This document shows positions 6,235 through 33,132 of a stretch of DNA of 61,204 bases, piece by piece. Position numbers and translations under genes: made by a program. The stretch lies in assembly GCA_038869755.1 (NCBI GenBank), contig JAWCQN010000002.1, positions 3,420 to 64,623 on the forward strand. The letters are read 5' to 3'. Within the stretch, counting starts at the first letter, position 1. Each line of letters opens with the position of its first letter. The notes under the pieces were generated by a model, which ran no database searches, had not been told where the DNA came from, and saw nothing but the letters and a program-made list of their open reading frames with translations. Origin of the DNA: Candidatus Pacearchaeota archaeon. Lineage in GTDB: Archaea > Nanobdellota > Nanobdellia > Pacearchaeales > GW2011-AR1.

Positions 6235-6381
6235 TGGTCCCGGAGGGATTTGAACCCTCGACACCTGGATTTCTCCCGTTTTTCTGTTCTTATTCATCCA
6301 CTAAAGGGAGATGCTATAAGAAGAACCGTAAGTTCTTTTTATTAAGAGTCCAGTGCTCTAACCAGACTGAGCTACGGAACC
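6235..6381 (-). tRNA. tRNA-Lys(CUU) with ~72-nt intron at the canonical 37/38 position
   Basis: Reverse complement reads GGTTCCGTAGCTCAGTCTGGTTAGAGCACTGGACTCTTA[intron ~6271-6342]ATCCAGGTGTCGAGGGTTCAAATCCCTCCGGGACCA. Acceptor, anticodon (CTGGA/TCCAG) and T arms all pair. No encoded CCA. Confidence 0.85.
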
Positions 6382-13327: not shown

Positions 13328-14206
13328 TTAAGTTTTGCTCATTTTGATTAAACTTAACAACTTATTCGTGCTTAAACTCAATTCAGGTATTGCTTCTTCT
13401 GATGGAGTTTTACCATCTATTCCTTGATGCTTTCTGACAAAATTATAGTAGATTTCCATTCCTTTCATTATGGCTTTAGCACTTTCCAAAGAACCATGAA
13501 AGCCACGCATGATTTTTGTTCTATCTCTTATTGTGTTGTGTAGTCTTTCTATTTTGTGATTAAATCCCCTTTCAGATGCTATGATTACATTATGAATAAT
13601 TGGGCTTTTGTGGTTCCAGTGAGTTTTTAACCCGAAAGATTTCTTCAAAACTCTTTCGTAACCTTGTAAGCCATCTGTTGTAACTATTTTTACATTTCCG
13701 TTAGTTACGAATTTACTTCTTTTGAGAACTTTTGTTAAATTTTCTATGGTTCTGCTTTTCATATAATCAGAAGCAACCATAAAACGAGTTTCTGTGTCCA
13801 TAACATCAACAAACCAATTCTGTTCTCCTAATCTGTGATATTCCATTTCATCAGACATTAGCTCTTGCCCAGATTGGATTTGCAAATTATCTGTTAATGT
13901 GCTTATCATGTTCGCATATTTTACAATCCACCTATAGATAGTTGAATAATGAGAGTTTTTAGGAGCAAACATCTGCAAGTGTTCTTGTATTTTTCTTAAT
14001 GACATTACAGCATAATACATATTCATACAGGCAGTTATTTTGTCTTCGTGGTTTTTCATCTTCCAGAAACCATCGTCTATAGAAAATCTGTGAGAGCAAT
14101 CCTTGCATTTATACCTTTGAACTTTGCCTCTATTTTTTGTTTCTCTAATTCCTTCTTTCTTAATGTTCTTTACCTTGCATTTCTCACAGATTATTTCTCT
14201 TTTCAT
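13328..14206 (-). CDS. IS6-family DDE transposase with N-terminal zinc finger
   Basis: CEKC..CKDC finger. D-D-E contexts are SDEMEY, IVTTDGLQGY and NHKIERLHNTIRDRTKIMRGF, the last matching the IS26-like N-x-x-E-x-x-H-x-x-x-K-x-R motif. Confidence 0.85.
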   Translation of the reverse strand: MKREIICEKCKVKNIKKEGIRETKNRGKVQRYKCKDCSHRFSIDDGFWKMKNHEDKITACMNMYYAVMSLRKIQEHLQMFAPKNSHYSTIYRWIVKYANMISTLTDNLQIQSGQELMSDEMEYHRLGEQNWFVDVMDTETRFMVASDYMKSRTIENLTKVLKRSKFVTNGNVKIVTTDGLQGYERVLKKSFGLKTHWNHKSPIIHNVIIASERGFNHKIERLHNTIRDRTKIMRGFHGSLESAKAIMKGMEIYYNFVRKHQGIDGKTPSEEAIPELSLSTNKLLSLIKMSKT

Positions 14207-14209
14207 ATT

Positions 14210-14240
14210 GTATACCTACAATAATATACTATAGGTATAC
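14210..14240. promoter_or_regulatory. 9-bp inverted repeat GTATACCTA-N13-TAGGTATAC between divergent tnp and Zn-ribbon/MTase genes
   Basis: Read directly from the sequence; it begins 4 nt upstream of the transposase start codon. Confidence 0.4.
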
Positions 14241-14313
14241 ACCTATTTAAATCTTTCGGTTATGCTATATAACTATAGTAAAATATTTAAAGTAGTAATA
14301 CAATCATATTTGT

Positions 14314-14457
14314 ATGAGCAAGAAAGAAATCAAGGTTTATGAGTGCAAATGTGAGAGATGCGGGCATGAATGGATAACAAGAAGCGAAGATGCTCCTATT
14401 GTATGCCCTAAATGTAAATCTCCGTATTGGGATAAACCATTAAATAACAAGAAGTGA
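14314..14457 (+). CDS. 47-aa Zn-ribbon protein immediately upstream of the methyltransferase
   Basis: MSKKEIKVYECKCERCGHEWITRSEDAPIVCPKCKSPYWDKPLNNKK has CxxC...CxxC. Its stop lies 4 nt before the MTase ATG. Confidence 0.45.
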   Translation: MSKKEIKVYECKCERCGHEWITRSEDAPIVCPKCKSPYWDKPLNNKK

Positions 14458-14461
14458 AAAA

Positions 14462-15502
14462 ATGAAAACAATACATAAAATAATTTATAGTGATGCAAGA
14501 GAAATGAAAGATATTAAATCTGAAAGTATAGATTTAATGATAACTTCTCCACCTTATCCTATGATAGAAATGTGGGATAAAATGTTTTCTTCACAAAATC
14601 CAGAAATAGCAAAAGCACTAAAAGAGAACAATGGGGAAAGAGTTTTTGAGTTGATGCATGAAGAATTAGATAAAGTTTGGAAAGAAGTTTATATGGTTCT
14701 AAAAGTTGGGGGAATTGCTTGTATTAACATCGGAGATGCAACAAGAAGTTTAAATGGAAAATTTAAGATTTATCCCAATCACGCAAGAATATTGAATTCT
14801 TGCCTAAATATCGGGTTTCATGCATTGCCATCAATTTTATGGATAAAAGAAACAAATAAACCAGATAAATTCATGGGTTCTGGAATGTTGCCTGTGGGGG
14901 CTTATGTTACTTTAGAACATGAGCATATTTTAATTTTAAGAAAAGGAAATAAAAGAGAGTTTAAGAAACCAGAAGAAAAATTAAACAGACAAAAAAGTGC
15001 TTTTTTTTGGGAAGAAAGAAATATTTGGTTTTCTGACAAATGGAAAGATATAAACGGAGTTTTCCAGAGATTAAACCATACAAAAGTAAGAGAGAGAAGT
15101 GCAGCTTATCCAATTGAACTAGCTTATAGATTGATAAATATGTTTTCTGTTCAGGGCGATACTGTTTTAGACCCATTTTTAGGAACAGGAACAACAACTT
15201 TGGGAGCTATTGCTTCTGCAAGAAATAGCATCGGTTTTGAAATTGATAAGAATTTCAAGGAGATAATAGAAGAAAGAATAAAAGAAATAAAAGAGATAGC
15301 AAATGTTTACATTGATGAAAGATTAGAAAAACATAAGGAGTTTATGGAGAAAAGAGCAGAATTGAAGGGAGAACATAAGTACTGGAATAAAAACTATAAT
15401 TTTCCTGTTATAACATTACAAGAGAAGAATATACTATTGCCAAAAGTAAAAGAAATTCAAAAAGCAGAAGAAAATTTATTTGAAGCAGAACATTTACTCT
15501 AA
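14462..15502 (+). CDS. Beta-class DNA methyltransferase (N4-cytosine/N6-adenine; SPPY type)
   Basis: Motif IV DLMITSPPYP is near the N-terminus and motif I DPFLGTGTTTLGA near residue 235, the beta-class order. Confidence 0.9.
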   Translation: MKTIHKIIYSDAREMKDIKSESIDLMITSPPYPMIEMWDKMFSSQNPEIAKALKENNGERVFELMHEELDKVWKEVYMVLKVGGIACINIGDATRSLNGKFKIYPNHARILNSCLNIGFHALPSILWIKETNKPDKFMGSGMLPVGAYVTLEHEHILILRKGNKREFKKPEEKLNRQKSAFFWEERNIWFSDKWKDINGVFQRLNHTKVRERSAAYPIELAYRLINMFSVQGDTVLDPFLGTGTTTLGAIASARNSIGFEIDKNFKEIIEERIKEIKEIANVYIDERLEKHKEFMEKRAELKGEHKYWNKNYNFPVITLQEKNILLPKVKEIQKAEENLFEAEHLL

Positions 15503-16107
15503 CTCGCTTATGTCTATTATAACTCCATCTTTCTTTTTATCATAGTAGATTATCCTAACTTCTATCTTTTCACTCAACATATTTTTAGTTTTGTAGGTTA
15601 TTGGCTTTATTGAAATTGGAATATTACCGATAAATCCATCTATACCTTTACTTTCTTCTTGAGGAGTGGCTAAACGATATTGTAATTTCTTTAGTTTTGC
15701 TATTCTTTTCAGTATTCCCTCTTGAAACTTTAATCCAATAAATGTTTTATCAATTACTAAATCTTCAACCCACTTTTTAACCATTTTTTCATCTATCTGA
15801 TTAATAGCTTTTTTCAATTCTTCAACCATAGAAAATATCTTTTTAGTAGCATCATCAATAGCTTTTGGCTGTTGCTGTAGATACCATCTTTCCATTTATG
15901 GTATTCTTTATGAGGGCATTTTACTATCAATTCTGATAATTGACCAACAACTCGCGGGCGAGTGCCTTGCGCATTTTGATTAGCTAAATTTATTATTTGA
16001 GCGGTATATTTAGGAAATTCTTTAGCTTCTCCAGAAATCTCCTTAATTAGCTCTTTGAAGCTAATTTTGATTAAATCACTTCCCATAAATTTGTTATGGT
16101 TAACCAA
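15494..16107 (-). pseudogene. Type II restriction endonuclease-like gene, split by a frameshift
   Basis: Two overlapping ORFs in different frames (16107-15814 and 15895-15494), convergent with and overlapping the MTase 3' end. The N-terminal part FPKYTAQIINLANQNAQGTRPRVVGQLSELI resembles MjaII-type enzymes as I recall them (unverified). Confidence 0.55.
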
Positions 16108-16191: not shown

Positions 16192-17256
16192 ATGGAAAAA
16201 CAAAAGATATTTATAAAAACATACGGATGTCAGGCGAACATAAATGATTCTGAGGTATTAGCCGGAAAACTTGTTAGCGAAGGCAATATATTAGTTTCAA
16301 ATGAGGCTGAAGCTGATAAAATAATAGTGAATACCTGTTCTGTCAAAAATAAAACACAAAGTAAGATTATACACTATCTGAATAAAATTGAAAATAATTA
16401 CACTGATAAAAAAATCGAAGTTGGAGGATGTTTAGTTAAAAGTGTTGATTTAACTAAAAGATTTCCTAATGTAAAATTTATTGATACAATAAATACAAAT
16501 AAATTAAATAGAAACATTGTTAGAACAAATAAAGAGATAGGGATTATACAGATTTCCCAAGGTTGTTTAAATGCCTGTACATTTTGTTCAACTAAATTGG
16601 CTAGGGGTGTTTTGAAAAGTTATAGGATTGGAGATATTAAAAGGCAGTTTCAAACTTTACTTGACGATGGTTGTAAAATAATTTATTTAACAAGTCAGGA
16701 TAATGGTTGTTATGGATTTGACATTAAGACAAATCTCCCAGAGTTAGTTAAAGAATTATTAAGTGTGAAAGGATTTAGCGATTATAAGATAAGAATCGGG
16801 ATGATGAATCCTTGGCATTTAAGAAAAATACTAAAAGAATTAGTTGAAGTATATAAAGATAAAAGAATTCAACCATTCTTACATATTCCTGTGCAAAGTG
16901 GGAGTGAAAAAGTTTTGAGAGATATGAAAAGAATTCATACTGTTTATGAATTCAGGGAAGCGGTTAGATTGTTTAGACAAGAAATTACAGATATTGATAT
17001 TGCGACTGATATTATTGTGGGATTTCCAACTGAAACAGATGAGGATTTTATGGAAACTTACAATTTGGTTAAAGAAATAAAACCTGAAGTATTAAACATA
17101 AGTGCATTTTCCTCAAGACCAAATACTAGAGCATCTCGGCTGAAACAGATTCCTTCAGAAATAATAAAGGAAAGAACAAAGAAACTGAATTATTTGTATT
17201 TGAGTTATAGGTCTTTAGTTGAAAAAAGATTTAATTACAAGATTAATAATATTTGA
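16192..17256 (+). CDS. MiaB/MtaB-family radical-SAM methylthiotransferase (no TRAM domain)
   Basis: N-terminal MTTase domain IKTYGCQANINDSE..NTCSV and radical-SAM cluster SQGCLNACTFCS. The protein ends without a TRAM domain. Confidence 0.8.
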   Translation: MEKQKIFIKTYGCQANINDSEVLAGKLVSEGNILVSNEAEADKIIVNTCSVKNKTQSKIIHYLNKIENNYTDKKIEVGGCLVKSVDLTKRFPNVKFIDTINTNKLNRNIVRTNKEIGIIQISQGCLNACTFCSTKLARGVLKSYRIGDIKRQFQTLLDDGCKIIYLTSQDNGCYGFDIKTNLPELVKELLSVKGFSDYKIRIGMMNPWHLRKILKELVEVYKDKRIQPFLHIPVQSGSEKVLRDMKRIHTVYEFREAVRLFRQEITDIDIATDIIVGFPTETDEDFMETYNLVKEIKPEVLNISAFSSRPNTRASRLKQIPSEIIKERTKKLNYLYLSYRSLVEKRFNYKINNI

Positions 17257-17305
17257 CTAAAAATAGTTACTTAAACTTTATAAACTTCTTAATTCTCGTA
17301 AAAAT

Positions 17306-18631
17306 ATGGTTAACAATAGTTTAACAGAAATTGAAATAATGTCTCCTGCAGGGAATTTTGAATGTTTGGCAGCTGCTATAAAAGCTGGAGCTAATTCAGT
17401 ATATTTTGGAGTTGAACAGCTTAACATGAGGGCAAGAGCTGCCAATAATTTTTCTCTTGATGATTTGCCAGAAATTGTTAAAATTTGTAACGAAAAAAAT
17501 GTTAAAACTTATTTAACTTTAAACACAATAATGTATGATCATGATATTGTTTTAATGAAAAAAATCTGCGATTCTGCTAAAAAAGCAGGAGTTAGTGCAG
17601 TAATAGCATCAGATATTTCCGCTATTGGATATGCTAATTCAATAGGTTTGGAAGTGCATATTTCAACCCAAACAAATGTATCTAACATAGAGGCTGTAAA
17701 ATTTTATTCGAAATTCGCAGATGTTATTGTTCTTGCAAGGGAATTAACCATAAGTCAAATTAAAAAAATTTGTGATGAAATTAATAAGGAAAATATTACT
17801 GGCCCAAAGGGAGAGTTAGTTAGAATAGAGTTATTTGCACATGGAGCAATGTGTGTCGCAATTTCAGGAAAATGTTACATGAGTCTTGGAACTTATAATG
17901 CATCAGCAAACAGGGGGGCATGTTTGCAAAATTGTCGTAGAAGTTATAGGGTAATTGATAACGAAACAGGAGATGAGTTAGTTATTGATAATGAATATGT
18001 TATGTCTCCAAGCGACTTATGCACTATTGGTTTCATAGATAAATTAATAGATGCAGGAGTAAAAGTTTTCAAGATAGAGGGAAGAGGAAGGTCGGCAGAT
18101 TATGTTTATATAACGACGAAATGTTATAGGGAAGCTGCAAATTCTTATTTGGAAGGAAGTTATACCGAGCAAAAGATTTCTGAGTGGATAAAACAGTTGG
18201 AAAGTGTTTATAACAGAGGGTTTTGGCATGGAGGTTATTACTTAGGTAAACAGCTAGGAGAATGGTCAGGAGTTTATGGAAGTAAAGCTACTAAAGAAAA
18301 AATTTTTGTTGGAATTGCAAAACATTATTTTCCTAAAACCCAGATTGGTGAGTTTCATATTCAGAGCGAAAAGATAAAAGTTGGAGACGAAATCTTGATT
18401 ACTGGAAATACAACAGGGGTTATACAAGGCAAAGTTGAAGAAATGTTTGTAAATGATAAAAAAGCTGAAATAAATGGGGAAGCAAAGGCAGGAGATGTTA
18501 TTACATTTAAGGTTTATGAAAGAGTTAGGGAAAATGATAAGTTATATGTTGTTAAAGATAAAATCAAACTGCAAGGAAATAATTCTTTAAAGGAAAAAAA
18601 TAAATTGAACGTGATTAATCATAGAGGATAA
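17306..18631 (+). CDS. Peptidase U32-family protein (RlhA/TrhP/UbiU-like)
   Basis: N-terminal AGANSVYFGVEQLNMRARAANNF and central CVAISGKCYMS...CLQNCRR Cys cluster, both typical of the U32 family. Confidence 0.8.
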   Translation: MVNNSLTEIEIMSPAGNFECLAAAIKAGANSVYFGVEQLNMRARAANNFSLDDLPEIVKICNEKNVKTYLTLNTIMYDHDIVLMKKICDSAKKAGVSAVIASDISAIGYANSIGLEVHISTQTNVSNIEAVKFYSKFADVIVLARELTISQIKKICDEINKENITGPKGELVRIELFAHGAMCVAISGKCYMSLGTYNASANRGACLQNCRRSYRVIDNETGDELVIDNEYVMSPSDLCTIGFIDKLIDAGVKVFKIEGRGRSADYVYITTKCYREAANSYLEGSYTEQKISEWIKQLESVYNRGFWHGGYYLGKQLGEWSGVYGSKATKEKIFVGIAKHYFPKTQIGEFHIQSEKIKVGDEILITGNTTGVIQGKVEEMFVNDKKAEINGEAKAGDVITFKVYERVRENDKLYVVKDKIKLQGNNSLKEKNKLNVINHRG

Positions 18632-18632
18632 A

Positions 18633-19064
18633 ATGAATGCACAAACAGAAAGAGGCTTGCCAGAATATATTAAGCACGAACTTGAAGAGTATAAGAAACT
18701 TCTTAGAGGTAGGAAAATAGTTGGATTTGTAGAATGTTTGTATTCTTTAGAACAAGGGATGGCTTCACTTTCAGAAGAAAAAAGAGGAGTGATAACAGAA
18801 TTAATTGTTGGGAATGGGATAAGCCTTTTAGAGTCAATAAATAGGGATAGTGAGGACTATCACTTTTTTGCTGGAAATATTGCAGCTTACTTACAAAACA
18901 TTAGACATAATTTTTTAACCCACCAATCTTTTAATAGAAATATATGTTTAAATTTAGCATATCTATTTGTTAGGACTAGAAACCCTTTAGCTTTTGAGAT
19001 TTTGGAAGATTGTTTAGATATAAAAAGAAATTGGTGGAAAGATTACAGAGAATTATATGGATAG
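18633..19064 (+). CDS. Hypothetical helical protein, translationally coupled to U32 gene
   Basis: 143-aa ORF whose ATG lies 1 nt after the U32 stop codon; no known motifs. Confidence 0.5.
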   Translation: MNAQTERGLPEYIKHELEEYKKLLRGRKIVGFVECLYSLEQGMASLSEEKRGVITELIVGNGISLLESINRDSEDYHFFAGNIAAYLQNIRHNFLTHQSFNRNICLNLAYLFVRTRNPLAFEILEDCLDIKRNWWKDYRELYG

Positions 19065-19117
19065 AGCAGAAGAGAATAACTTTAATATACTATTCTTTTT
19101 TCTTTTTCTTGTTTAAA

Positions 19118-19354
19118 ATGTCAAAATTAAAATTAATTCACCATAGAGATAAATGCATTGGGTGTAATGTCTGTTTTGAGGCTTCTCCTTCAAACTGGAA
19201 AATTAATGAAGAAGACGGAAAAGCCGATTTGATTGGAGGTAAGGAAACAAAGAAAGGAGTTTTTGTTAAAGAAATTTCTCAAATAGAACTTGCAGAAAAT
19301 AAATTAGCTGAAGATAACTGCCCAATGGGGATAATACATATTGATTCAAATTGA
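19118..19354 (+). CDS. Small ferredoxin-like protein (single 4Fe-4S type)
   Basis: CIGCNVCFEASP ... NCPMG Cys pattern. 78 aa counted from the first ATG. Confidence 0.6.
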   Translation: MSKLKLIHHRDKCIGCNVCFEASPSNWKINEEDGKADLIGGKETKKGVFVKEISQIELAENKLAEDNCPMGIIHIDSN

Positions 19355-19390
19355 GTTAAATTTAAAAACTTGAATACTTCTAAAATTTTC

Positions 19391-20401
19391 ATGCAACAAT
19401 ATAGGAAATATGAAGTAGAATGGATTAAGTTAAATGAATTAGCTAGAGAATACTTTGACATAACTCAAAAATTACTTCCTAATAATGGCAGAATTTATTA
19501 CGAATCAGGTAGGGATCCAGATACTGAAGAAATTGTTAAGATTGAAATTGATTCTCGTTCTCAAAGGCAAAAAGATTTAGCTGCAGATATAATTGAAGGA
19601 GCTTATCCATACATTAGGAAAATAGTTCAAAAATTAATGTATGGGGAAGGACAAGATGTTAAGGGAAAAAATGGCAAAACCAATAGGTTTTATCTATGTT
19701 CTTTGCAAGATTTTTCAACACTAGATGATTTAGTTAGTTTATCAGCAATTATAATAATGAAATCATTACACAATTATAATCCAAGATATAGTGTTTCCAC
19801 TTTCATCCATCAAAATGTTGTTTTTGGGCTTAATAGATATAGTAGTCCAGGATTAATAAGAATTCCAGAACATATGAAACAAAAAGCAAGAAAAGCAGTT
19901 AAAAATGGGAGCGGATCAACAATGAAACATAAAATTCATGATGAACTAAAAACAACTGAGGCAACAATGGGAAGTATTTCACACTCACTTACAGGAAGAT
20001 ATGTGAGTATTGATCAATTAATAGGACAGCAAAGTTTTATGAATCCAAGATATGGTGTGCCTAGAAGAAGGTCATATGCAGAAGTTTTTTTGCCAGACAA
20101 ATCTTTTGCAGGAGATACTGAAAGGCAGGTTGAAGAATCTCTAATGAAAGATGCTGTTGAGAGACAATTAAAAACACTTACTGAAAGAGAAGAAAGAGTT
20201 TTAAAATTGAGATATGGAATTGGCGAAGCAAAAAGAGTTAGTCCAAAATATAATATTTGGTATATGAGTTTAGAAGAAGTAGGGAATATTTTTAATGTTA
20301 GTAATAGTAGAGTTATGCAAATACAAAATAAAGCTGAAAGGAAATTAAGGCACCCTAAAAGAACAATAGAATTAAAACCATATTTAAAAGATTTAGAATA
20401 A
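19391..20401 (+). CDS. Sigma-70-family protein (bacterial-type) in an archaeal context
   Basis: Region 2: DDLVSLSAIIIMKSLHNYNPRYSVSTFIHQNVVFGLNRY..LIRIPEHM. Region 4: LTEREERVLKLRYGIG...SLEEVGNIFNVSNSRVMQIQNKAERKLRHPKR..LKPYL. The ORF track starts at a TTG at 19370; the first ATG is at 19391. Confidence 0.75.
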   Translation: MQQYRKYEVEWIKLNELAREYFDITQKLLPNNGRIYYESGRDPDTEEIVKIEIDSRSQRQKDLAADIIEGAYPYIRKIVQKLMYGEGQDVKGKNGKTNRFYLCSLQDFSTLDDLVSLSAIIIMKSLHNYNPRYSVSTFIHQNVVFGLNRYSSPGLIRIPEHMKQKARKAVKNGSGSTMKHKIHDELKTTEATMGSISHSLTGRYVSIDQLIGQQSFMNPRYGVPRRRSYAEVFLPDKSFAGDTERQVEESLMKDAVERQLKTLTEREERVLKLRYGIGEAKRVSPKYNIWYMSLEEVGNIFNVSNSRVMQIQNKAERKLRHPKRTIELKPYLKDLE

Positions 20402-20910
20402 TGAATTTTATGCAACAACAAATACTTGAATATATTGAAATTAAAAAATCAGGCATACACTCTAATGGAGCTTTTGCTAGATGTTTTATTCCTAAGGGAA
20501 CCAGAATAATAGAATATATAGGAAGAAAAATAAAAAAAAATGAAGCAGATGAAATCGCTGATAAAGAGCTGGAAAATCATAAAAAAGACAGCAGCAAAGG
20601 AGCTGTTTATATTTTTGAGCTAAATGATGAATACGATATAGATGGAAATGTTCCTTGGAATATGGCAAAATACATAAATCACTCTTGCTCTCCGAATGCA
20701 GAAGTAGAAATAGAAAATGATAGAATATGGATTATTGCAATGAGAGATATTAATTCTGGAGAAGAGATAACTTATGATTATGGTTATGATTTGGACGAAT
20801 GGGAAGATCATCCATGCAACTGCGGAAGTAAAAACTGCATAGGATATATAATATCAAGAGATGAGTGGGATAAGTTTAAAGAGATAAAAAAAGAGAATAG
20901 TAAAAATTGA
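20401..20910 (+). CDS. SET-domain protein lysine methyltransferase with post-SET Cys motif
   Basis: Motifs YINHSCSPNA, GEEITYDYGY and CNCGSKNCIGY. The start overlaps the sigma stop (TAATG). Confidence 0.9.
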   Translation: MNFMQQQILEYIEIKKSGIHSNGAFARCFIPKGTRIIEYIGRKIKKNEADEIADKELENHKKDSSKGAVYIFELNDEYDIDGNVPWNMAKYINHSCSPNAEVEIENDRIWIIAMRDINSGEEITYDYGYDLDEWEDHPCNCGSKNCIGYIISRDEWDKFKEIKKENSKN

Positions 20911-24230: not shown

Positions 24231-24238
24231 TTTATTTA

Positions 24239-27060
24239 GATCCAATGTGGCTTTTAGTGACTGCGAGCTGAACATCTCGCCGAAGCTTGATGCTTACACT
24301 CCAGTTCTATCAACGTTGTCTTCTACAACGGCCTAAGTTGTCTCGTTTTGCGGATGGCTTCGTGCTTAGATGCTTTCAGCACTTATCCATTAATGCGTAG
24401 CTGCGCAGCTTGCTCGTAACAACTGCTACACCAGAGGCATCCAAGTCAGGTTCCTCTCGTACTACTGACTTGTTCCACTCAGACAACAACACACCTAGTA
24501 GATATCATACAAACTGTCTCACGACGTTCTTAACCCAGCTAACGATCCCTTTTAATGCGTGAACTCCGACACCCTTGGTGGCTTATGCACCACCAGGTTA
24601 GGAAGAGCCGACAGCGATGTACCAAACCGCGCCGTCAATTCGGACTATCGGGCGCGACAAGCCTGTTATCCTTGGGGTAACTTTTCTGTCACATTTGCAG
24701 CCTATTAAAAGTTGTCAAATGGTCGCTAAAGCCGACTTTCGTCTCTGCATCCATTACTTTTCAGAATACAGTTAGATGAGCTTTTGCTTTTGCACTCAAC
24801 CCTAGATTTCCACCCTAGGTGAGCTCATCTTTGCGCCCTATAGATATACTTTCTACAGGGTGCCGCCCCAGCCAAACTGCCCACAAGCTGCTGTCCTCTC
24901 GGAAGAGTTAGTATTTCCTTAAGCGATAAGTAGTATTACACTTTTGCTCCCCCTTTGCCGAAGCTAGGGTTCAACGCTCCTACTTATTCTATGTATCATT
25001 CAAAGAAACACAACAACAAGCTGCAGTAAAGTTCCACAAGGTCTTAGCTTCCCACTAGGTGTCACCGGCATTTTCACCGGTCAGTGATTTCAGAAGGTTC
25101 TGGTTAGGGACAGTGACCACCTCGTTAAACCATTCATGCAAGTCGCCATTCAGACGACAAGGTATTACGCTACCTTAAGAAGGTCATAGTTACCTCCGCC
25201 GTTTGATGGGCATTAGCTCTCTTGAAAAAGAGTTTCAGACACCACCACTGGGCAGGTCTCACCGAGTATACAAGTCCTTTCGGATTAGCACTCGGCTACG
25301 TTTTTGGTAAACAGTCGGGCAGTCCTTGTTACTGCGATCTACTTATGCCTTCTAATATCAAAGACATATATAGACACCCTTTCTACCTAAGATACAGGGC
25401 CAATATGCCGAATTCCCTTAACCAGGTTATACCTTTCAGGTCTTAGCCTTCTCAGCTAGGGCACCTGTGTTGGTTCTTGGTACAGCTTTCTTATCTCTAT
25501 TTAAAGAACTTTTCACTGACTCCTGGAATCAGCAGTTTTCATTGACACATTCACCTACTTCTTATCATTACGATCCATAGATTTCTATGCCAAATTTCCT
25601 TTCGGAAATCTGCTTATCCGGAAGCAATTCCTTAACATAGCGAAATAACAAAGTTCAGGAATATTAACCTGATGTCCATCGAAGTACTCGATTAAAGTAC
25701 TTCTTAGGTGCTGACTAACCCTTGGCTAACGATTAGTGCCAAGGAAACCGCGCCCTTTCGACCTTTTCCATTCTCAGGAAAATTTGATCCTACTCCAGCC
25801 AGGATTTTCATTACTCTTCGTTCCACTCCATCTCTCGATAAAGCTTCTACACAAAGAGTACGCCAGTTTACCAGAACACTCATCTGAGTGCCTCTATAGT
25901 ATCGGTAATATACTTAGCCCCGTCCATTTTCAGGGCCTCTAACCTCGATAGGTGAGCTGTTACGCTTTCTTTAAAGGATGGCTGCTTCTAAGCCTACCTC
26001 CCTAGTGTCTCAGGTTAAAGACACCTTTTATCACACTTAGCATATATTTTGGGACCTTAACTATAGTCTCCCTTGTTCGGGTCTCGGAACAGGACCTTAC
26101 GCCCTGCCCCCGATTCCTTCTCTATACAGTATACAAATTCTGAGTTGGAAAAGTTTCCGTAATCTTTCGATCCTGCGAACCTCATCCGTACTTTACCTCG
26201 TATACAAGCAGAGAAAGGCTATACTTAGGCATATTTCAACTGGAACCAGCCATCGCCAGATTAGAGTGGCTTTTCACCCCTAATCACAAGTCATTCGAGT
26301 GCATGTACACAACAACGGTTCAGGCCTCCATCTCTATTTCTAGAAACTTCGCCTTGCTCATGATTAGATCATCTGGCTTCGGGTCAATTCCCTGTGACTC
26401 GCGCTCTTTCGAACTCGCTTTCGCTACGGCTTCCTTAGTGTTAACCTTGCCACAAGAAATAACTCCCTGGCCCATTTTTCGAAACGTACGCTACAACCGC
26501 TTACAGAGTAAACAGGCAGTAGCGAGCTGTAACTGTTAGATTTCAAGTCTTTTAACCCCTTATTACAGGTACTTTTCAGCTTTCCCTCGCGGTACTATTT
26601 CTCTATCGGACTTGAGTTTATATTTAGAGTTAGCAGTTAATCCTGCCGTATTCATGCCTCCAATCCAGGAGACATTACTCTTTGAGGTATACCATATGCT
26701 TATATCTACGAGACTATCACTCTCTAAGGTAGTTCGTTCCAGAACACTTTGATATTTACACTTAGGTTTTAACCCTCACCACATCTCTACTCCTCTTTCA
26801 AGGAAAGATTCGGTTTGCCCTATACCCTTTTCACTCGCTGTTACTAGGGGTATCACTATTTGTTTTCTTTTCCTGCCGCTACTAAGATGTTTCAATTCAC
26901 GGCGTATGCTTTCCTCTCGGAATTCTCAAAAAGAGAATGTTTTCACATTAGGAAATTCCATGATCAAAGCTCGCATGCAGCTACCATGGACTTTTCGCAG
27001 CTTGCCACGTCCTTCGTCGCAACTCAAGCCAAGCTATTTGTCTAACAGCTTATTAGGATC
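24239..27060 (-). rRNA. rrl: 23S rRNA
   Basis: The minus strand begins near GATCCTAATAAGCTGTTAG...GGCTTGAGTTGCGACGAAGGACGTGGCAAGCTGCGAAAAGTCC and ends ...GTTCAGCTCGCAGTCACTAAAAGCCACATTGGATC. GC content is far above the flanks. Boundaries are approximate. Confidence 0.9.
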
Positions 27061-27139
27061 TTTTAACATTTATCACTATTTTTTCTTTTTAGAATTTTTT
27101 TAATCAACTTTTTTCTAAAAATTTTATAGTGGGATATAT

Positions 27140-27155
27140 TGCTCTACTCGTCTCA
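27140..27155. repeat. 23S processing-stem arm (5' side)
   Basis: TGCTCTACTCGTCTCA pairs with 24215-24230. Confidence 0.85.
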
Positions 27156-27590
27156 TTGCAATTGAATATTATTGCTCAACTCCCTCCTTTTCCGACGGAA
27201 AAGAAGTTCATAATTTTTTGTTTCAGATTACTCTGAATTCTTCACGTGAATTCTTTTGATTTTAGTTTTGAAAAACCTTTCTCAAAAGTTTTATGTGAAT
27301 ATTAAATTTTGATTTAGTTTATATATCGCTGTTGATAAATAAACTTTTAATTAACCAAACTTGTGATTAATTTTTACAAATTAGGAATCAGAAATTTTTT
27401 AATTCTTTAACATGATACATACTTTTCAGTATTTATTTTGTTAAAGTATGAATTATTTCTGATTACCATTTGATTATATAACTTGAAAAACAGGATTTAT
27501 AAAGCTTTCGTGAAAATTTCTTTATTATTCTGAGTAGTGTTTGGTATAATATGGAAAATTGGTAATAAAGATCAATAAAATATTAGTTTT

Positions 27591-27947
27591 TTATCTTTTT
27601 GATATTGCTAAGGTAATCATACCTAAAGAGTATGTAATTCCACTAACTGCTAATCCATTTACGATTTCATCTATATATATTAAATAATTATGCAATGGAG
27701 AAACATGGTTTCTATCTATTATGGCATATTCTTGTTTTGGATATATTTGAGAGAGTTTGTCAGCTATGTAAGAATTGCAACCTGAAATGCTTCCGGCTAA
27801 TCCAATGGTTATACTAAGTGCAGCTAATCCTCTTCTCAAATTTTTTCCAATATTTATTTTATTAATGGAATTATTATGGATTTCTGGAAATCTTGCATCA
27901 ATTTCTTCTCTCATTACTTCATGAACTGAACTCCTTTCGCTTTTCAT
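27591..27947 (-). CDS. Hypothetical membrane/lipoprotein-like protein inside the tRNA-Ala/23S spacer
   Basis: 118-aa ORF on the same strand as the rRNAs. It has LRRGLAALSITIGLAGSISGC (lipobox-like) and a C-terminal TM helix. Confidence 0.4.
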   Translation of the reverse strand: MKSERSSVHEVMREEIDARFPEIHNNSINKINIGKNLRRGLAALSITIGLAGSISGCNSYIADKLSQIYPKQEYAIIDRNHVSPLHNYLIYIDEIVNGLAVSGITYSLGMITLAISKR

Positions 27948-28513
27948 AATTTTTTTAGAAGTAATTGGTTTAAAAAACTATGTTTTTTATCAGTTGTAAA
28001 GTAGGCGTCTGGAATTTTGAACAAAAAAATTAAACCTTTTTGACCACCACGATTTTTCCTTAATCCTGATCTCTAATTTCTGTCCTCATTTAGACAGGAA
28101 TTATAGGAAGAAATTTTAAATCTATTGATTGTCGAACTTTGCAAAATAAGTATCGTTTGTAAAAAAGCCTAACAAAAAACATTTTTAATTTCAGATTTAT
28201 TTAATGTTAATTCTTGAGAATATCACTCCAGTGGTAAGTTTTAGTTTATAGACCTATTGACTATGTAACCATTTATAAGTTAGTATTAATAAAACACCGA
28301 CTCCTAAAAATTAAAAGATACTTTAGATCCCACCTGCAAGGATACGTAAAATTATTTAAGGATTTGGGGACTATTTCACTTTTTAATTTGTTACACCAAA
28401 AGATTTTTTCTTGTTTTTTTATCGGCTTTTTCAAAGTAAATTAAACTCGCGAGGGTAATTTTAAATATAAAATAATAGATAAAATGGTAATTTTTATATG
28501 TCAGATAAATAAA

Positions 28514-28584
28514 TGGACCTGCCGGGAATCGAACCCAGATCTCATCCTTGCAAAGGACGTATTCTACCATTGGACTACAGGCCC
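28514..28584 (-). tRNA. tRNA-Ala(UGC) in the rRNA spacer
   Basis: Reverse complement GGGCCTGTAGTCCAATGGTAGAATACGTCCTTTGCAAGGATGAGATCTGGGTTCGATTCCCGGCAGGTCCA. G3:U70 is present and the anticodon loop is TTTGCAA. The D-stem pairs weakly. Confidence 0.8.
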
Positions 28585-28820
28585 ATAAAAACAACCAAAG
28601 GTTTTCCTTATCAAACTTTACTTTAATAGAATATAATTAATGGTTTTTAAATTTAGTTGATTTGATAAAAATTAATCATAAACCTCAACATCTATTTTTG
28701 TAATAAATGAGTAATCTATTATACTATAAATAATGACATTAAGTTACACTATATTATCAAATTATTATTTTTGATTTTTAAACTAAAAAAGAAGAAATGT
28801 TAAAAAATAATATGGGTGCC

Positions 28821-28832
28821 TGCGAAGCAGTC
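28821..28832. repeat. 16S processing-stem arm (3' side)
   Basis: TGCGAAGCAGTC is the reverse complement of 30452-30463. Confidence 0.75.
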
Positions 28833-28872
28833 TGTTACTTACAATTTTTTCCAAAAATTCTGTTTAAAATTT

Positions 28873-30311
<1,439 letters not shown>

Positions 30312-32715: not shown

Positions 32716-33132
32716 ATGTACAAGAATTATGAAACATCAGTAGGAAACAATCTAAAACACATACAATTACCAAAAAAATACAGATACAAAGTAATGAATA
32801 AAGAAAATATAAAAGTGCTTTGTAAAGTATTAATTGAAGAAGCGTGTAAGGGATACAAAATAGAAATTGTAATTCCGAAAGTCAAAGAAGAATACATACA
32901 TTTGACGGCAGATTTACCTATGATAATGTCAGATGCAAAAGCTATGCAGTTGATAAAGGGTTTTTCATCTTATCTTTTATTCAGGCTTTACTCAGCTTTA
33001 AGAGAGGTATATCATAAAGGACATTTTTGGAATGCAGGCTACTTTTGCTGTCCTGTTGGAGTCGATTTTGATAATGTATTTTTCATATATAGAAAATCAA
33101 TGGATTTGTCTAAGGGACGCTGTGGGCTTTAG
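32716..33132 (+). CDS. IS200/IS605 TnpA-like (Y1/HUH) protein with degenerate HUH motif
   Basis: KKYRYKVM, IKGFSSYLLF and HFWNAGYFCCPVG follow the TnpA layout. The HUH position reads Y-I-H (EEYIHL). No tnpB partner is present. Confidence 0.6.
   Translation: MYKNYETSVGNNLKHIQLPKKYRYKVMNKENIKVLCKVLIEEACKGYKIEIVIPKVKEEYIHLTADLPMIMSDAKAMQLIKGFSSYLLFRLYSALREVYHKGHFWNAGYFCCPVGVDFDNVFFIYRKSMDLSKGRCGL

What the first reader, a model, noticed from the sequence alone, without database searches (positions are those of the whole stretch)
19370..20910. Bacterial-type sigma-70 homologue translationally coupled to a SET-domain methyltransferase in an archaeal genome
The flanking genes are unambiguously archaeal, and archaea initiate transcription with TBP/TFB, not sigma factors.

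- The 19391-20401 product still shows a sigma-70 layout. Region 2.1-2.4 reads IIEGAYPYIRKIVQKL...DDLVSLSAIIIMKSLHNYNPRYSVSTFIHQNVVFGLNRY...LIRIPEHM.
- Its region 4 is very well preserved: LTEREERVLKLRYGIG...SLEEVGNIFNVSNSRVMQIQNKAERKLRHPKR..LKPYL.
- At the position of the aromatic/basic -10 melting block of housekeeping sigmas (T-Y-A-x-W-W-I-R-Q) it reads T-F-I-H-Q-N-V-V-F. An insertion of about 23 aa splits region 2.1/2.2. A conventional promoter-melting role is therefore doubtful.
- Its stop overlaps the ATG of a SET/post-SET lysine methyltransferase (TAATG at 20399-20403), implying co-expression.

A sigma region-4 HTH protein paired with a protein methyltransferase has no described function in archaea. 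Possible roles are a repurposed DNA-binding targeting module for the methyltransferase, or a factor aimed at a bacterial partner's RNA polymerase. Both ideas are speculative.
Basis: partly seen in the sequence, partly recalled or inferred. Interest (0 to 1): 0.7.

Follow-up and report, generated by a model that had tools for sequence, protein, structure and literature searches.

The report
Bacterial-type sigma gene beside archaeal SET methyltransferase
A small-genome (DPANN-type) archaeon carries an intact, expressed-looking copy of a bacterial-style sigma factor next to a protein lysine methyltransferase; such archaeal sigma genes are already reported but unexplained, and the conserved pairing with the methyltransferase is a modest new lead.

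Summary
Positions 19391-20401 encode a 336-aa sigma-70-family protein. Evidence: Pfam region 4, the NCBIfam sigma-70 superfamily model, and an AF2 model that matches SigA/RpoD over about 290-350 columns. The contig is unambiguously archaeal, with 16S/23S rRNA, RpoK, TFS, exosome, proteasome, CDC48 and FttA. A SET/post-SET lysine methyltransferase follows.

The idea is not new. Sigma-70 genes in DPANN archaea, especially Woesearchaeota, are published (PMC8204110; Rinke 2013 from my own knowledge), and their function is still unknown.

What I add:
- This gene belongs to a distinct ~300-aa sigma subfamily found in several archaeal contexts and in some bacteria.
- Its own subclade (39-70% identity; groundwater and Tara Oceans assemblies, plus two Logan read-run assemblies of unrecorded source) always sits directly upstream of SET.
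- The gene has a canonical archaeal TATA box at -30 and looks leaderless. It evolves under purifying selection.
- In the window protein the bacterial core-binding (E407/G408) and -10-melting (W433/W434) residues are lost.

The TAATG "coupling" is doubtful. The conserved SET start is ATG 20410, and relatives have 22-66 bp spacers with a separate SET promoter.

Most likely it is a repurposed DNA-binding regulator. A functional link to SET is plausible but unproven.

The parts
19361..19368 (+). TATA-box-like element (TTTAAAAA) of the sigma gene, at -30 to -23 from the ATG. This predicts a leaderless mRNA.
   Evidence: The same kind of box sits at the same distance in all ten archaeal sigma loci examined. 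It is absent from the bacterial loci L004 and L005, which have a GAGG Shine-Dalgarno instead. Eleven window ORFs carry such a box starting at -28 to -34. The promoter architecture is as described in PMC7289017.
19391..20401 (+). Sigma-70-family gene (336 aa, P0001), including the stop codon.
19391..19561 (+). Family-specific N-terminal module (residues 1-57). It contains the W..LNELAREY helix, a beta-hairpin, and the (D/N)RS..Q..LA motif.
   Evidence: The motif is present in about 25 of the top 150 representatives and absent from RpoD-type hits. Secondary structure comes from the AF2 model.
19562..19840 (+). Sigma region 2 equivalent (residues 58-150). It includes a beta-hairpin insert at residues 84-102 (19640-19696).
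   Evidence: Alignment to E. coli and Bacilli RpoD. D403 and L404 are kept. Q406/E407/G408/N409 become S/L/S/A. Y430 becomes F. W433/W434 become Q/N. R436/Q437 become V/F. There is no Pfam r2 hit.
19847..19993 (+). Sigma region 3 equivalent (residues 153-201). The IRIPEHM (3.0) motif is retained.
   Evidence: The H455 equivalent is kept.
20117..20395 (+). Sigma region 4 (residues 243-335). A clade-specific 9-aa insert (VSPKYNIWY, 20237-20263) lies between 4.1 and the HTH.
   Evidence: Pfam PF04545. In the alignment, the -35-contact positions R584/E585/R586/R588/Q589 read N/S/R/M/Q in the window. They remain R/E/R/R/Q in P0004 and in most family members.
20382..20389 (+). TATA-like ATTTAAAA inside the 3' end of the sigma ORF, 28 nt upstream of ATG 20410. 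It is a candidate separate promoter for SET.
   Evidence: Sequence. The spacing matches other window promoters. Relatives carry a SET-specific TATA box in their spacers. There is no Shine-Dalgarno before either ATG, whereas internal operon genes in the window have GAGG or GGTGA.
20410..20910 (+). SET/post-SET lysine methyltransferase gene (166 aa from the conserved start). An alternative in-frame ATG at 20401 overlaps the sigma stop codon (TAATG).
   Evidence: Pfam SET 84.9 bits. Best PDB matches are KMT2D and MLL1 SET at 1e-23. Invariant NHSC, Y.DY and C.C...C motifs. AF2 plus Foldseek gives MLL1 SET with probability 1.0.

Best explanation
**What it is (shown)**
- The gene is a member of the bacterial-origin sigma-70-like family that is scattered through DPANN archaea.
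- It is domesticated in this lineage.
  - It sits in a conserved chromosomal neighbourhood.
  - It has the host's base composition.
  - It is preceded by a standard archaeal TATA box at the distance used by this genome's leaderless genes.
  - It stays an intact ORF under purifying selection across relatives that diverge to 35-40% identity.
- It encodes a complete sigma2-sigma3-sigma4 fold plus a family-specific N-terminal module.
- In the window's own branch (with the L001-L003 and P0121 relatives), the residues that bacterial sigmas use to grip the beta-prime clamp helices (E407/G408/N409) are replaced. The marine members P0122 and P0123 keep E-G.
- The W433/W434 pair used to wedge open the -10 element is replaced in all members aligned.
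- The sigma4 helix-turn-helix and the 3.0 helix are kept.

**How it most likely works (inferred)**
- It no longer acts as a general initiation factor.
- It acts as a sequence-specific DNA-binding regulator alongside the normal TBP/TFB/TFE machinery.

**The SET neighbour**
- The neighbouring gene is an ordinary, DPANN-wide SET/post-SET protein lysine methyltransferase.
- By analogy with Go1-SET, it probably methylates a chromatin or DNA-binding protein.
- In this sigma subclade the two genes have stayed adjacent while the surrounding genes changed. This suggests, but does not prove, a functional link: the regulator controls, recruits, or is modified by SET.
- In relatives each gene has its own promoter. 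In the window the spacer is compacted, so the SET promoter lies inside the end of the sigma ORF.
For: **Identity**
-.

**Archaeal host and no chimera**
-.
- Synteny in independent assemblies.

**Wider family in archaeal contexts**
- L018 carries RNA_pol_N and Rpr2.
- L020 carries PCNA, prefoldin and diphthamide synthase.

**Archaeal promoter**
-.

**Selection**
- dN/dS is 0.24-0.42 for the close pairs.
- The ORF is intact in 7 lineages.
- Sigma evolves faster than its neighbours: 41% identity against 54-67% for the syntenic genes.

**Loss of core-binding and melting residues**
-.

**No excess of sigma-70-type promoters**
- 92 sites found against 90.1 +/- 10.7 expected.

**Sigma-SET adjacency**
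- It holds in 6 of 6 informative loci, with three different upstream neighbours.

**SET properties**
-.

**Literature**
- PMC8204110.
- PMC3980110 for Go1-SET and MC1-alpha.
Against: **No direct evidence**
- Nothing here shows DNA binding, targets, or any physical or regulatory link to SET.

**The link to SET may be absent or non-obligate**
- Each gene has its own promoter in relatives.
- SET occurs in thousands of genomes without this sigma clade.
- The 74%-identical SET P0402 has no sigma orthologue in the protein database (this is an inference, since its context was not fetched).
- Two other archaeal family members have no SET neighbour.
- Adjacency could simply be inherited gene order. The upstream block is also syntenic in Tara.

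**A sigma-like use is not excluded**
- Region 4 and the 3.0 helix remain strikingly RpoD-like.
- Many family members keep the E-G of region 2.2.
- Some RNAP-docking or sigma-like function therefore remains possible.

**Selection is only moderately purifying**
- dN/dS is up to about 0.4 for the close pairs.
Confidence: 0.5

Rival explanations
1. The adjacency to SET is only inherited gene order. The sigma-like gene is an accessory regulator, or a slowly decaying passenger, with no functional connection to the methyltransferase.
For: - Relatives have separate TATA boxes for the two genes.
- SET is a DPANN-wide gene.
- The upstream block is also syntenic with Tara.
- Other archaeal sigma-like genes lack a SET neighbour.
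- Sigma is the fastest-evolving gene of the block.
Against: - Adjacency survives where the upstream neighbour differs: ferredoxin, a 355-aa unknown, or a Cys-rich protein.
- Adjacency also survives where the downstream genes differ.
- It persists at 39% sigma identity with saturated dS.
Confidence: 0.3
2. It is still a sigma in the functional sense. It docks on the archaeal RNAP, with sigma2 on the Rpo1 clamp coiled-coil that is homologous to the beta-prime clamp helices, and it redirects that RNAP to a subset of promoters.
For: - The full sigma2-3-4 fold is retained.
- Region 4 and the 3.0 helix are conserved to RpoD level across the family. Many archaeal members keep D-L-V-x-E-G in region 2.2.
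- Archaeal RNAP subunits lie on the same contig.
Against: - The window clade has lost E407/G408/N409 and the W-W pair.
- There is no excess of -35/-10-like sites.
- No precedent exists. PMC8204110 found no anti-sigma factors and calls the mechanism unclear.
Confidence: 0.1
3. It is aimed at a bacterial partner. The protein would be delivered to, or act on, a bacterial host's RNA polymerase.
For: - Region 4 is near-identical to bacterial RpoD.
- PMC8204110 speculates that Woese-/Pacearchaeota may attach to bacterial cell walls.
Against: - The N-terminus is hydrophilic, with no signal-peptide-like segment (sequence).
- The core-binding residues of region 2.2 are lost.
- The gene is chromosomal, lies among housekeeping genes, and has no secretion genes nearby.
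Confidence: 0.04
4. It is an artefact: a chimeric assembly or mis-binned bacterial DNA. Alternatively it is a recent viral or mobile insertion.
For: - rpoS-like genes are reported on DPANN viruses and prophages (PMC12647753).
- A transposase and a restriction-modification system lie 3-6 kb upstream.
Against: - The gene is on the same contig as archaeal rRNA and RNAP subunits.
- GC content is identical to the flanks.
- It has an archaeal leaderless promoter.
- The same arrangement appears in independent assemblies from groundwater and ocean.
- No relatives were found in IMG/VR.
Confidence: 0.02

Closest known systems
Sigma-70-like genes of DPANN archaea (Castelle et al. 2021, fam00359, PMC8204110; Rinke et al. 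2013 Nature 499:431, the latter from my own knowledge because the paper is not held)
   Same: - It is a bacterial-type sigma-70 homologue encoded in small-genome archaea of the Woese-/Pace-/Nanoarchaeia type.
- It is not a binning artefact.
- No anti-sigma factor is present.
- The function is unknown.
   Different: - I could not check whether this protein falls in fam00359.
- The conserved position directly upstream of a SET gene is not mentioned in the papers I could read.
- The degenerate region 2.2/2.3 is not mentioned there either.
- The 9-aa insert in region 4 is likewise not mentioned.
Bacterial group 1/2 sigma factors (RpoD/SigA)
   Same: - The order of regions 2, 3 and 4 and the fold are the same.
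- Region 4.2 and the IRIP.HM helix are nearly identical.
- The best sequence and structure matches are SigA/RpoD.
   Different: - Regions 1.1 and 1.2 are absent.
- Scores are far below the equivalog cutoffs, for example 69.9 against 354.
- There is a family-specific N-terminal module.
- The core-binding and melting residues are lost.
- The host has no bacterial RNAP.
Go1-SET of Methanosarcina mazei, and the eukaryotic KMT2/MLL SET domains
   Same: - It is a minimal SET plus post-SET enzyme of about 165 aa.
- The catalytic NHSC and Y motifs and the Zn-binding cysteines are present.
- It is closest to the MLL/SET1 class.
- Go1-SET methylates a chromatin protein (PMC3980110).
   Different: - The substrate here is unknown.
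- It has a lysine-rich C-terminal tail.
- It belongs to a very large DPANN-specific orthologue group.
- No WRAD-type partners are known.
MzaA, the sigma-70-family protein of the MZA anti-phage system
   Same: It is the top NCBIfam and PADLOC hit, through the shared sigma C-terminus.
   Different: - Only the last ~165 of 726 profile positions match.
- The score is 72.5 bits against a cutoff of 800.
- No other Mza components lie nearby.
- It is not a member.

Membership tests
Sigma-70 family | Region 4 helix-turn-helix (Pfam PF04545) above the gathering score | tested here: met
   45.7 bits against a cutoff of 24.1. 27 of 27 family members hit.
Sigma-70 family | Region 2 (Pfam PF04542) detectable | tested here: not met
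   No hit for the window protein even at E<=10. 15 of 27 relatives do hit. Region 2 is recognisable only through alignment and structure.
Sigma-70 family | Whole-protein superfamily model (TIGR02937) above its cutoff, spanning regions 2-4 | tested here: met
   54.8 bits against a cutoff of 42.9, residues 71-328.
Sigma-70 family | Sigma2-sigma3-sigma4 three-domain fold | tested here: met
   AF2 pLDDT 82.2. The Foldseek top 50 are all SigA/RpoD chains, probability 1.0, 280-380 aligned columns.
Sigma-70 family | Region 2.2 residues that bind the beta-prime clamp helices (E. coli Q406, E407, N409; residue roles are from my own knowledge) | tested here: not met
   The window has S, L, A at these positions. 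E-G is kept in P0122, P0123, P0136 and P0148.
Sigma-70 family | Region 2.3/2.4 aromatic and basic residues for -10 recognition and melting (Y430, W433, W434, R436, Q437; residue roles are from my own knowledge) | tested here: not met
   The window has F, Q, N, V, F. ECF sigmas also lack the W-W pair, so this alone does not exclude melting.
Sigma-70 family | Binds RNAP core and confers promoter-specific initiation | not testable with these tools
   This needs biochemistry or co-folding. The window shows no excess of -35/-10-like sites.
Primary sigma (RpoD, group 1) | Regions 1.1/1.2 and equivalog-level similarity | tested here: not met
   No PF00140 or PF03979 hit. RpoD_Cterm scores 69.9 bits against a cutoff of 354.
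DPANN archaeal sigma-70-like genes (as reported in PMC8204110) | Sigma-70 homologue encoded on a contig with archaeal marker genes, mis-binning excluded | tested here: met
   Archaeal rRNA operon, RpoK, TFS and exosome lie on the same contig. Synteny is reproduced in independent assemblies. The nearest named SET homologues are from Nanoarchaeia, Pacearchaeota and Woesearchaeota.
DPANN archaeal sigma-70-like genes (as reported in PMC8204110) | Sequence membership in their family fam00359 | not tested
SET-domain lysine methyltransferases | SET domain above the Pfam cutoff, NHSC and catalytic-Tyr motifs, and post-SET Cys cluster | tested here: met
   84.9 bits against a cutoff of 22.4. N90-H91-S92-C93, Y122/Y124, and C136/C138/C143 are invariant in 12 sequences.
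SET-domain lysine methyltransferases | SET fold | tested here: met
   The AF2 core has pLDDT 75-94. The post-SET segment has low confidence, as expected without Zn. Foldseek gives MLL1/MLL4 SET with probability 1.0 and 35-37% identity.
SET-domain lysine methyltransferases | Methyltransferase activity and a defined substrate | not testable with these tools
   No assay was possible.
MZA anti-phage system (MzaA) | Full-length MzaA match plus partner genes | tested here: not met
   72.5 bits against a cutoff of 800, C-terminal part only. PADLOC finds nothing else in the neighbourhood.

The most novel reading that the evidence does not exclude
The sigma-like protein is a working part of archaeal transcription. 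It docks on the archaeal RNA polymerase or pre-initiation complex and selects a regulon. The adjacent SET enzyme methylates it or local chromatin proteins. Together they would form a hybrid bacterial/eukaryote-like promoter-marking module in DPANN archaea.
Probability: 0.08. Interest if true: 0.9.

Novelty: new member of a known kind. Interest (0 to 1): 0.4.

Why it matters
Bacterial sigma factors and the archaeal/eukaryotic TBP-TFB system are textbook alternatives. Sigma genes in DPANN archaea have been an unexplained oddity since 2013.

This locus does not solve the puzzle, but it sharpens it in three ways:
- At least one archaeal sigma lineage is vertically maintained, carries an archaeal promoter, and is under selection.
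- That lineage has shed the residues needed for the bacterial job.
- It is consistently parked next to a chromatin-type methyltransferase.

This gives a concrete, cheap experiment: express two small proteins, then test DNA binding, methylation and RNAP pull-down. That experiment would address what a sigma fold does in a cell without bacterial RNA polymerase.

If the pairing turns out to be mere synteny, the locus is just another example of a known HGT-derived family.

Tried and rejected
**Searches that found nothing or were blocked**
- GTDB species-representative genomes, scan 1: back-translated patterns from the four close homologues gave 100 pattern matches, none confirmed.
- GTDB species-representative genomes, scan 2: my own degenerate pattern for EIDSRS(E/Q)(R/E)QK.LA gave 0 matches. 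I therefore could not obtain organism names or a genome-wide survey.
- JGI/ENA metagenome contigs, same pattern: this returned only the Hainich and Tara contigs already known.
- IMG/VR viral contigs: no relatives.
- The listing of cluster members gave no organism names.

**Word-index limits**
- The second homologue search was swamped by RpoD sequences. It returned only P0148, P0270 and P0271 from the family.

**Hypotheses checked and rejected**
- PADLOC and MzaA: rejected as a generic hit to the sigma C-terminus.
- Shared sigma/SET promoter motif as evidence of autoregulation: rejected. The same AAA..TTTAAAAAC-type box precedes many unrelated genes in the window.
- The 143-aa ORF (18633-19064) as a possible anti-sigma or partner: it has no family hit and is not conserved in any related locus.
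- Ferredoxin as part of the sigma unit: rejected. It has no promoter of its own and follows the U32 gene, whose TATA box is at 17277. Sigma has a separate promoter. Ferredoxin is absent upstream of sigma in L003 and L010.

**Literature**
- Full-text searches timed out repeatedly before they succeeded.
- Rinke et al. 2013 is not held.

**Limits on methods**
- Co-folding of sigma with SET or with RNAP was not possible with the tools.
- The NJ tree has no support values. I use it only to say that the SET-linked clade groups together.
Full report
**1. What is in the sequence**

The window is an AT-rich (~30% GC) archaeal chromosome fragment.
- It carries archaeal 23S (24234-27065, minus strand) and 16S (28873-30311, minus strand) rRNA genes.
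- It also carries CDC48, FttA/aCPSF1, Mre11-Rad50, RNase J, enolase and topoisomerase.
- Further genes are RadA, TFS, RNAP subunit K, exosome Rrp4/41/42, SBDS, both proteasome subunits, a TrmB regulator and the archaeal CCA enzyme.
- Base composition across 19-21 kb (0.29) does not differ from the flanks.

The ORF listed from TTG 19370 really begins at ATG 19391.
- All homologues start M-(K/Q)-Q and are 336 aa long.
- The gene ends at 20401.
- A SET gene follows on the same strand.

**2. Is it a sigma factor by sequence and fold?**

| Test | Result |
|---|---|
| Pfam Sigma70_r4 | 45.7 bits |
| Pfam region 2 | No hit, even at E<=10 |
| NCBIfam TIGR02937 (sigma-70 superfamily) | Above cutoff, residues 71-328 |
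| PDB sequence search | Best hits all SigA/RpoD (best E 3e-13); one alignment runs through regions 2-4 |
| Profile of 27 family members against bacterial RpoD | About 1e-50 |
| AF2 model | pLDDT 82 |
| Foldseek on the model | Only sigma-A/RpoD chains from holoenzyme structures; probability 1.0; 280-380 columns |

Across the 27 relatives, Pfam r4 hits 27, r2 hits 15 and r3 hits 1. So this is a genuine but divergent sigma-70-family protein with a sigma2-sigma3-sigma4 architecture.

It lacks region 1.1/1.2. Instead it has a family-specific N-terminal module with the motifs W..LNELAREY and (D/N)RS..Q..LA.

**3. Residue-level state**

The functional roles of the E. coli residues below come from my own knowledge of the sigma-70 literature.

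| Region | E. coli residues | Window protein |
|---|---|---|
| 2.2 | D403, L404 | Kept |
| 2.2 | Q406, E407, G408, N409 | S, L, S, A |
| 2.3/2.4 | Y430, W433, W434, R436, Q437 | F, Q, N, V, F |
| 3.0 | IRIP.HM helix | Kept |
| 4.2 | R584, E585, R586, R588, Q589 | N, S, R, M, Q |

- A beta-hairpin insert lies between 2.1 and 2.2 (residues 84-102 in the model).
- In region 4.2, the close homologue P0004 and most family members keep RERIRQ.
- The four closest sequences share a 9-aa insert between 4.1 and the HTH.
- Other members, including archaeal ones, keep the E-G of region 2.2.
- The window's own branch (P0001-P0004 and P0121) is therefore the most degenerate part of the family in exactly the positions that matter for the bacterial job.

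**4. Relatives and genomic contexts**

Only three close homologues exist in 5.8 billion proteins. They are 67-70% identical and come from an NCBI MAG, Hainich groundwater and a Logan run.

An exhaustive HMMER search found a wider family of ~300-aa proteins. About 25 of the top 150 representatives carry the N-terminal motif.

| Member | Identity to window | Context | Domain | SET downstream? |
|---|---|---|---|---|
| P0123 (three Tara/ENA assemblies) | 41% | CDC48 ... radical-SAM(UPF0004), U32, ferredoxin, sigma, SET: the same order as the window | Archaeal | Yes |
| P0122 | 39% | 355-aa unknown, then sigma, then SET | Not established (no marker gene on the contig) | Yes |
| L001, L002, L003 | 67-70% | Sigma followed by SET | Not established (contigs 1.5-3.8 kb, no marker gene) | Yes |
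| P0126 | about 31% | RNA_pol_N, Rpr2 | Archaeal | No |
| P0136 | about 29% | PCNA, prefoldin, diphthamide synthase | Archaeal | No |
| P0148, P0271 | about 25-28% | ComF, PBP4B-like, PilZ; GAGG Shine-Dalgarno | Bacterial | No |

- In a rough NJ tree the SET-linked sequences group together (no support values).
- The family is therefore shared between some bacteria and several archaeal lineages.
- The SET linkage is specific to one archaeal subclade. There it holds in all six loci where downstream sequence exists.

**5. Expression signals**

- Every archaeal locus has a TATA-like box (TTTAAAAA, TTTTTAAA or TTTATATA) about 22-30 nt before the sigma ATG. The bacterial loci do not.
- In the window the box is at 19361-19368, which is -30 to -23.
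- Ten other window genes have the same arrangement. Internal operon genes instead have GAGG or GGTGA Shine-Dalgarno sequences.
- This matches the archaeal TATA/BRE promoter model (PMC7289017) with leaderless mRNAs.
- The ferredoxin upstream has no such box and follows the U32 gene, which has one. Sigma is therefore a transcription unit separate from the U32/ferredoxin genes.

**6. The junction with SET**

- TAATG (20399-20403) exists.
- The database gene call for this very contig is 166 aa. The 74%-identical Nanoarchaeia orthologue begins with the identical MQQQILEYIEI. The conserved start is therefore ATG 20410, 8 nt after the sigma stop.
- Neither ATG has a Shine-Dalgarno.
- An ATTTAAAA box lies 28 nt before ATG 20410, inside the last sigma codons.
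- In relatives the spacer is 22-66 bp and contains a separate TATA box at the usual distance from the SET start.
- I conclude that the overlap is a product of spacer compaction in this genome. Translational coupling is not required. Read-through co-transcription remains possible.

**7. Selection**

- The ORF is intact in seven lineages.
- Nei-Gojobori dN/dS is 0.24-0.42 for the close pairs. SET in the same genome pair gives 0.13.
- Window against the Tara lineage, amino-acid identity:

| Gene | Identity |
|---|---|
| Radical-SAM | 67% |
| U32 | 66% |
| Ferredoxin | 54% |
| SET | 54% |
| Sigma | 41% |

The gene is constrained, but it is the fastest-evolving member of the block.

**8. The SET gene**

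- Pfam SET scores 84.9 bits.
- The NHSC and Y.DY motifs and the post-SET C.C...C are invariant.
- The best sequence and fold matches are MLL/KMT2 SET domains.
- It belongs to a very large orthologue group of ~165-180-aa proteins. At least 7,832 hits reach E<=1e-10, and the top hits are 50-74% identical.
- The named members come from Nanoarchaeia, Pacearchaeota and Woesearchaeota.
- This also gives the best available guess at the window organism's taxonomy.
- The only characterised archaeal SET, Go1-SET, methylates the chromatin protein MC1-alpha (PMC3980110).

**9. What is already known**

- PMC8204110 reports sigma-70 genes in DPANN archaea. It says they are "particularly prevalent in Woesearchaeota" and that mis-binning is ruled out. 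It found no anti-sigma factors and calls the mechanism unclear.
- From my own knowledge, Rinke et al. 2013 (Nature 499:431) first announced complete bacterial-like sigma factors in archaeal single-cell genomes. That paper is not held.
- rpoS-like genes are also reported on DPANN viruses (PMC12647753).
- None of the 15 top-ranked open papers returned by a search pairing "SET domain" with DPANN lineage names contained the term "SET domain". I found no mention of a sigma-SET pair.

**10. Interpretation**

*Shown*
- A domesticated, selected, archaeal-promoter-driven sigma-70-family gene.
- Its bacterial core-binding and melting residues are lost in this clade.
- It has conserved adjacency to a DPANN-wide SET gene.
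- The window has no excess of bacterial-type promoters: 92 sites against 90.1 +/- 10.7 expected.

*Inferred*
- It acts as a sequence-specific DNA-binding regulator through sigma4, and possibly through the 3.0 helix, rather than as an initiation factor.
- The SET link is functional: control, recruitment or modification.

*Rivals*
- Mere synteny is a serious rival.
- A true sigma-like role on the archaeal RNAP is the exciting minority reading.
- A host-directed role and an assembly artefact are unlikely.

**11. Verdict**

The central surprise, a sigma in an archaeon, is a published phenomenon, and the "translational coupling" is probably not real.

The new elements are the subfamily definition, the archaeal promoter, the clade-specific decay of sigma2, and the conserved SET neighbour. 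These make it a useful but incremental lead.

Noticed in passing
window 16192-19354 (+): A MiaB-like radical-SAM/UPF0004 gene, a U32 'peptidase', a 143-aa orphan and a small 4Fe-4S ferredoxin lie upstream of sigma. This block is syntenic in Tara contigs. From my own knowledge, U32 proteins (TrhP/RlhA) are RNA hydroxylases, and TrhP depends on a ferredoxin. The block therefore looks like an RNA-modification cluster, not proteolysis. The ferredoxin belongs to it rather than to sigma.
   Followed up: partly
window 20401 vs 20410: There are two in-frame ATGs for SET. Orthologue N-termini and the public gene call favour 20410. The famous-looking TAATG overlap is probably incidental.
   Followed up: yes
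window 21012/21027-22133 (+): A 368-aa ORF downstream of SET has no family hit and is absent from related loci. A TATA box (TTTTTAAA at -29) indicates that the start is ATG 21027 rather than TTG 21012.
   Followed up: partly
window 13328-15895: A DDE integrase/transposase (13328-14206, minus strand) sits next to a type II restriction-modification pair: an N4/N6 DNA methylase (14462-15502) and an MjaI-family endonuclease (15494-15895, minus strand). An IS200-like Y1 transposase lies at 32716-33132.
   Followed up: no
window 6235-6381 (-): Rfam finds a tRNA spanning 147 nt that ARAGORN does not report. It is probably an intron-containing archaeal tRNA.
   Followed up: no
window 24234-30311 (-): The rRNA operon is 16S, tRNA-Ala, an unusually long ~1.4 kb spacer, then 23S. 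The spacer holds a 118-aa ORF (27591-27947) with its own TATA box.
   Followed up: no
P0138 (511 aa, NCBI contig of 20 kb; not fetched): A member of the same sigma subfamily carries a C-terminal domain that matches the bacterial RNA polymerase alpha-subunit CTD (Pfam RNA_pol_A_CTD, 3e-08). This is a sigma / alpha-CTD fusion. Its domain of life is unknown.
   Followed up: no
L009 742-2142 (P0121, 466 aa): The 51%-identical relative has a ~150-aa C-terminal extension with no family hit. The contig ends 76 bp after the gene, so whether SET follows is unknown.
   Followed up: no
L004 6443-7330; L005 6770-7663: Bacterial members of the subfamily (P0148, P0271) lie convergent to a response-regulator/PAS gene and near PilZ and ComF genes. 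They may point to the bacterial lineage that shares this sigma type with DPANN archaea.
   Followed up: partly
L003 1-246: In this relative the gene upstream of sigma is not ferredoxin. It is the Cys-rich C-terminus of another protein (…CTTCGK…CRSNEC…CVEC…CC..NC…). The sigma-SET pair has therefore been retained in a different upstream context.
   Followed up: no
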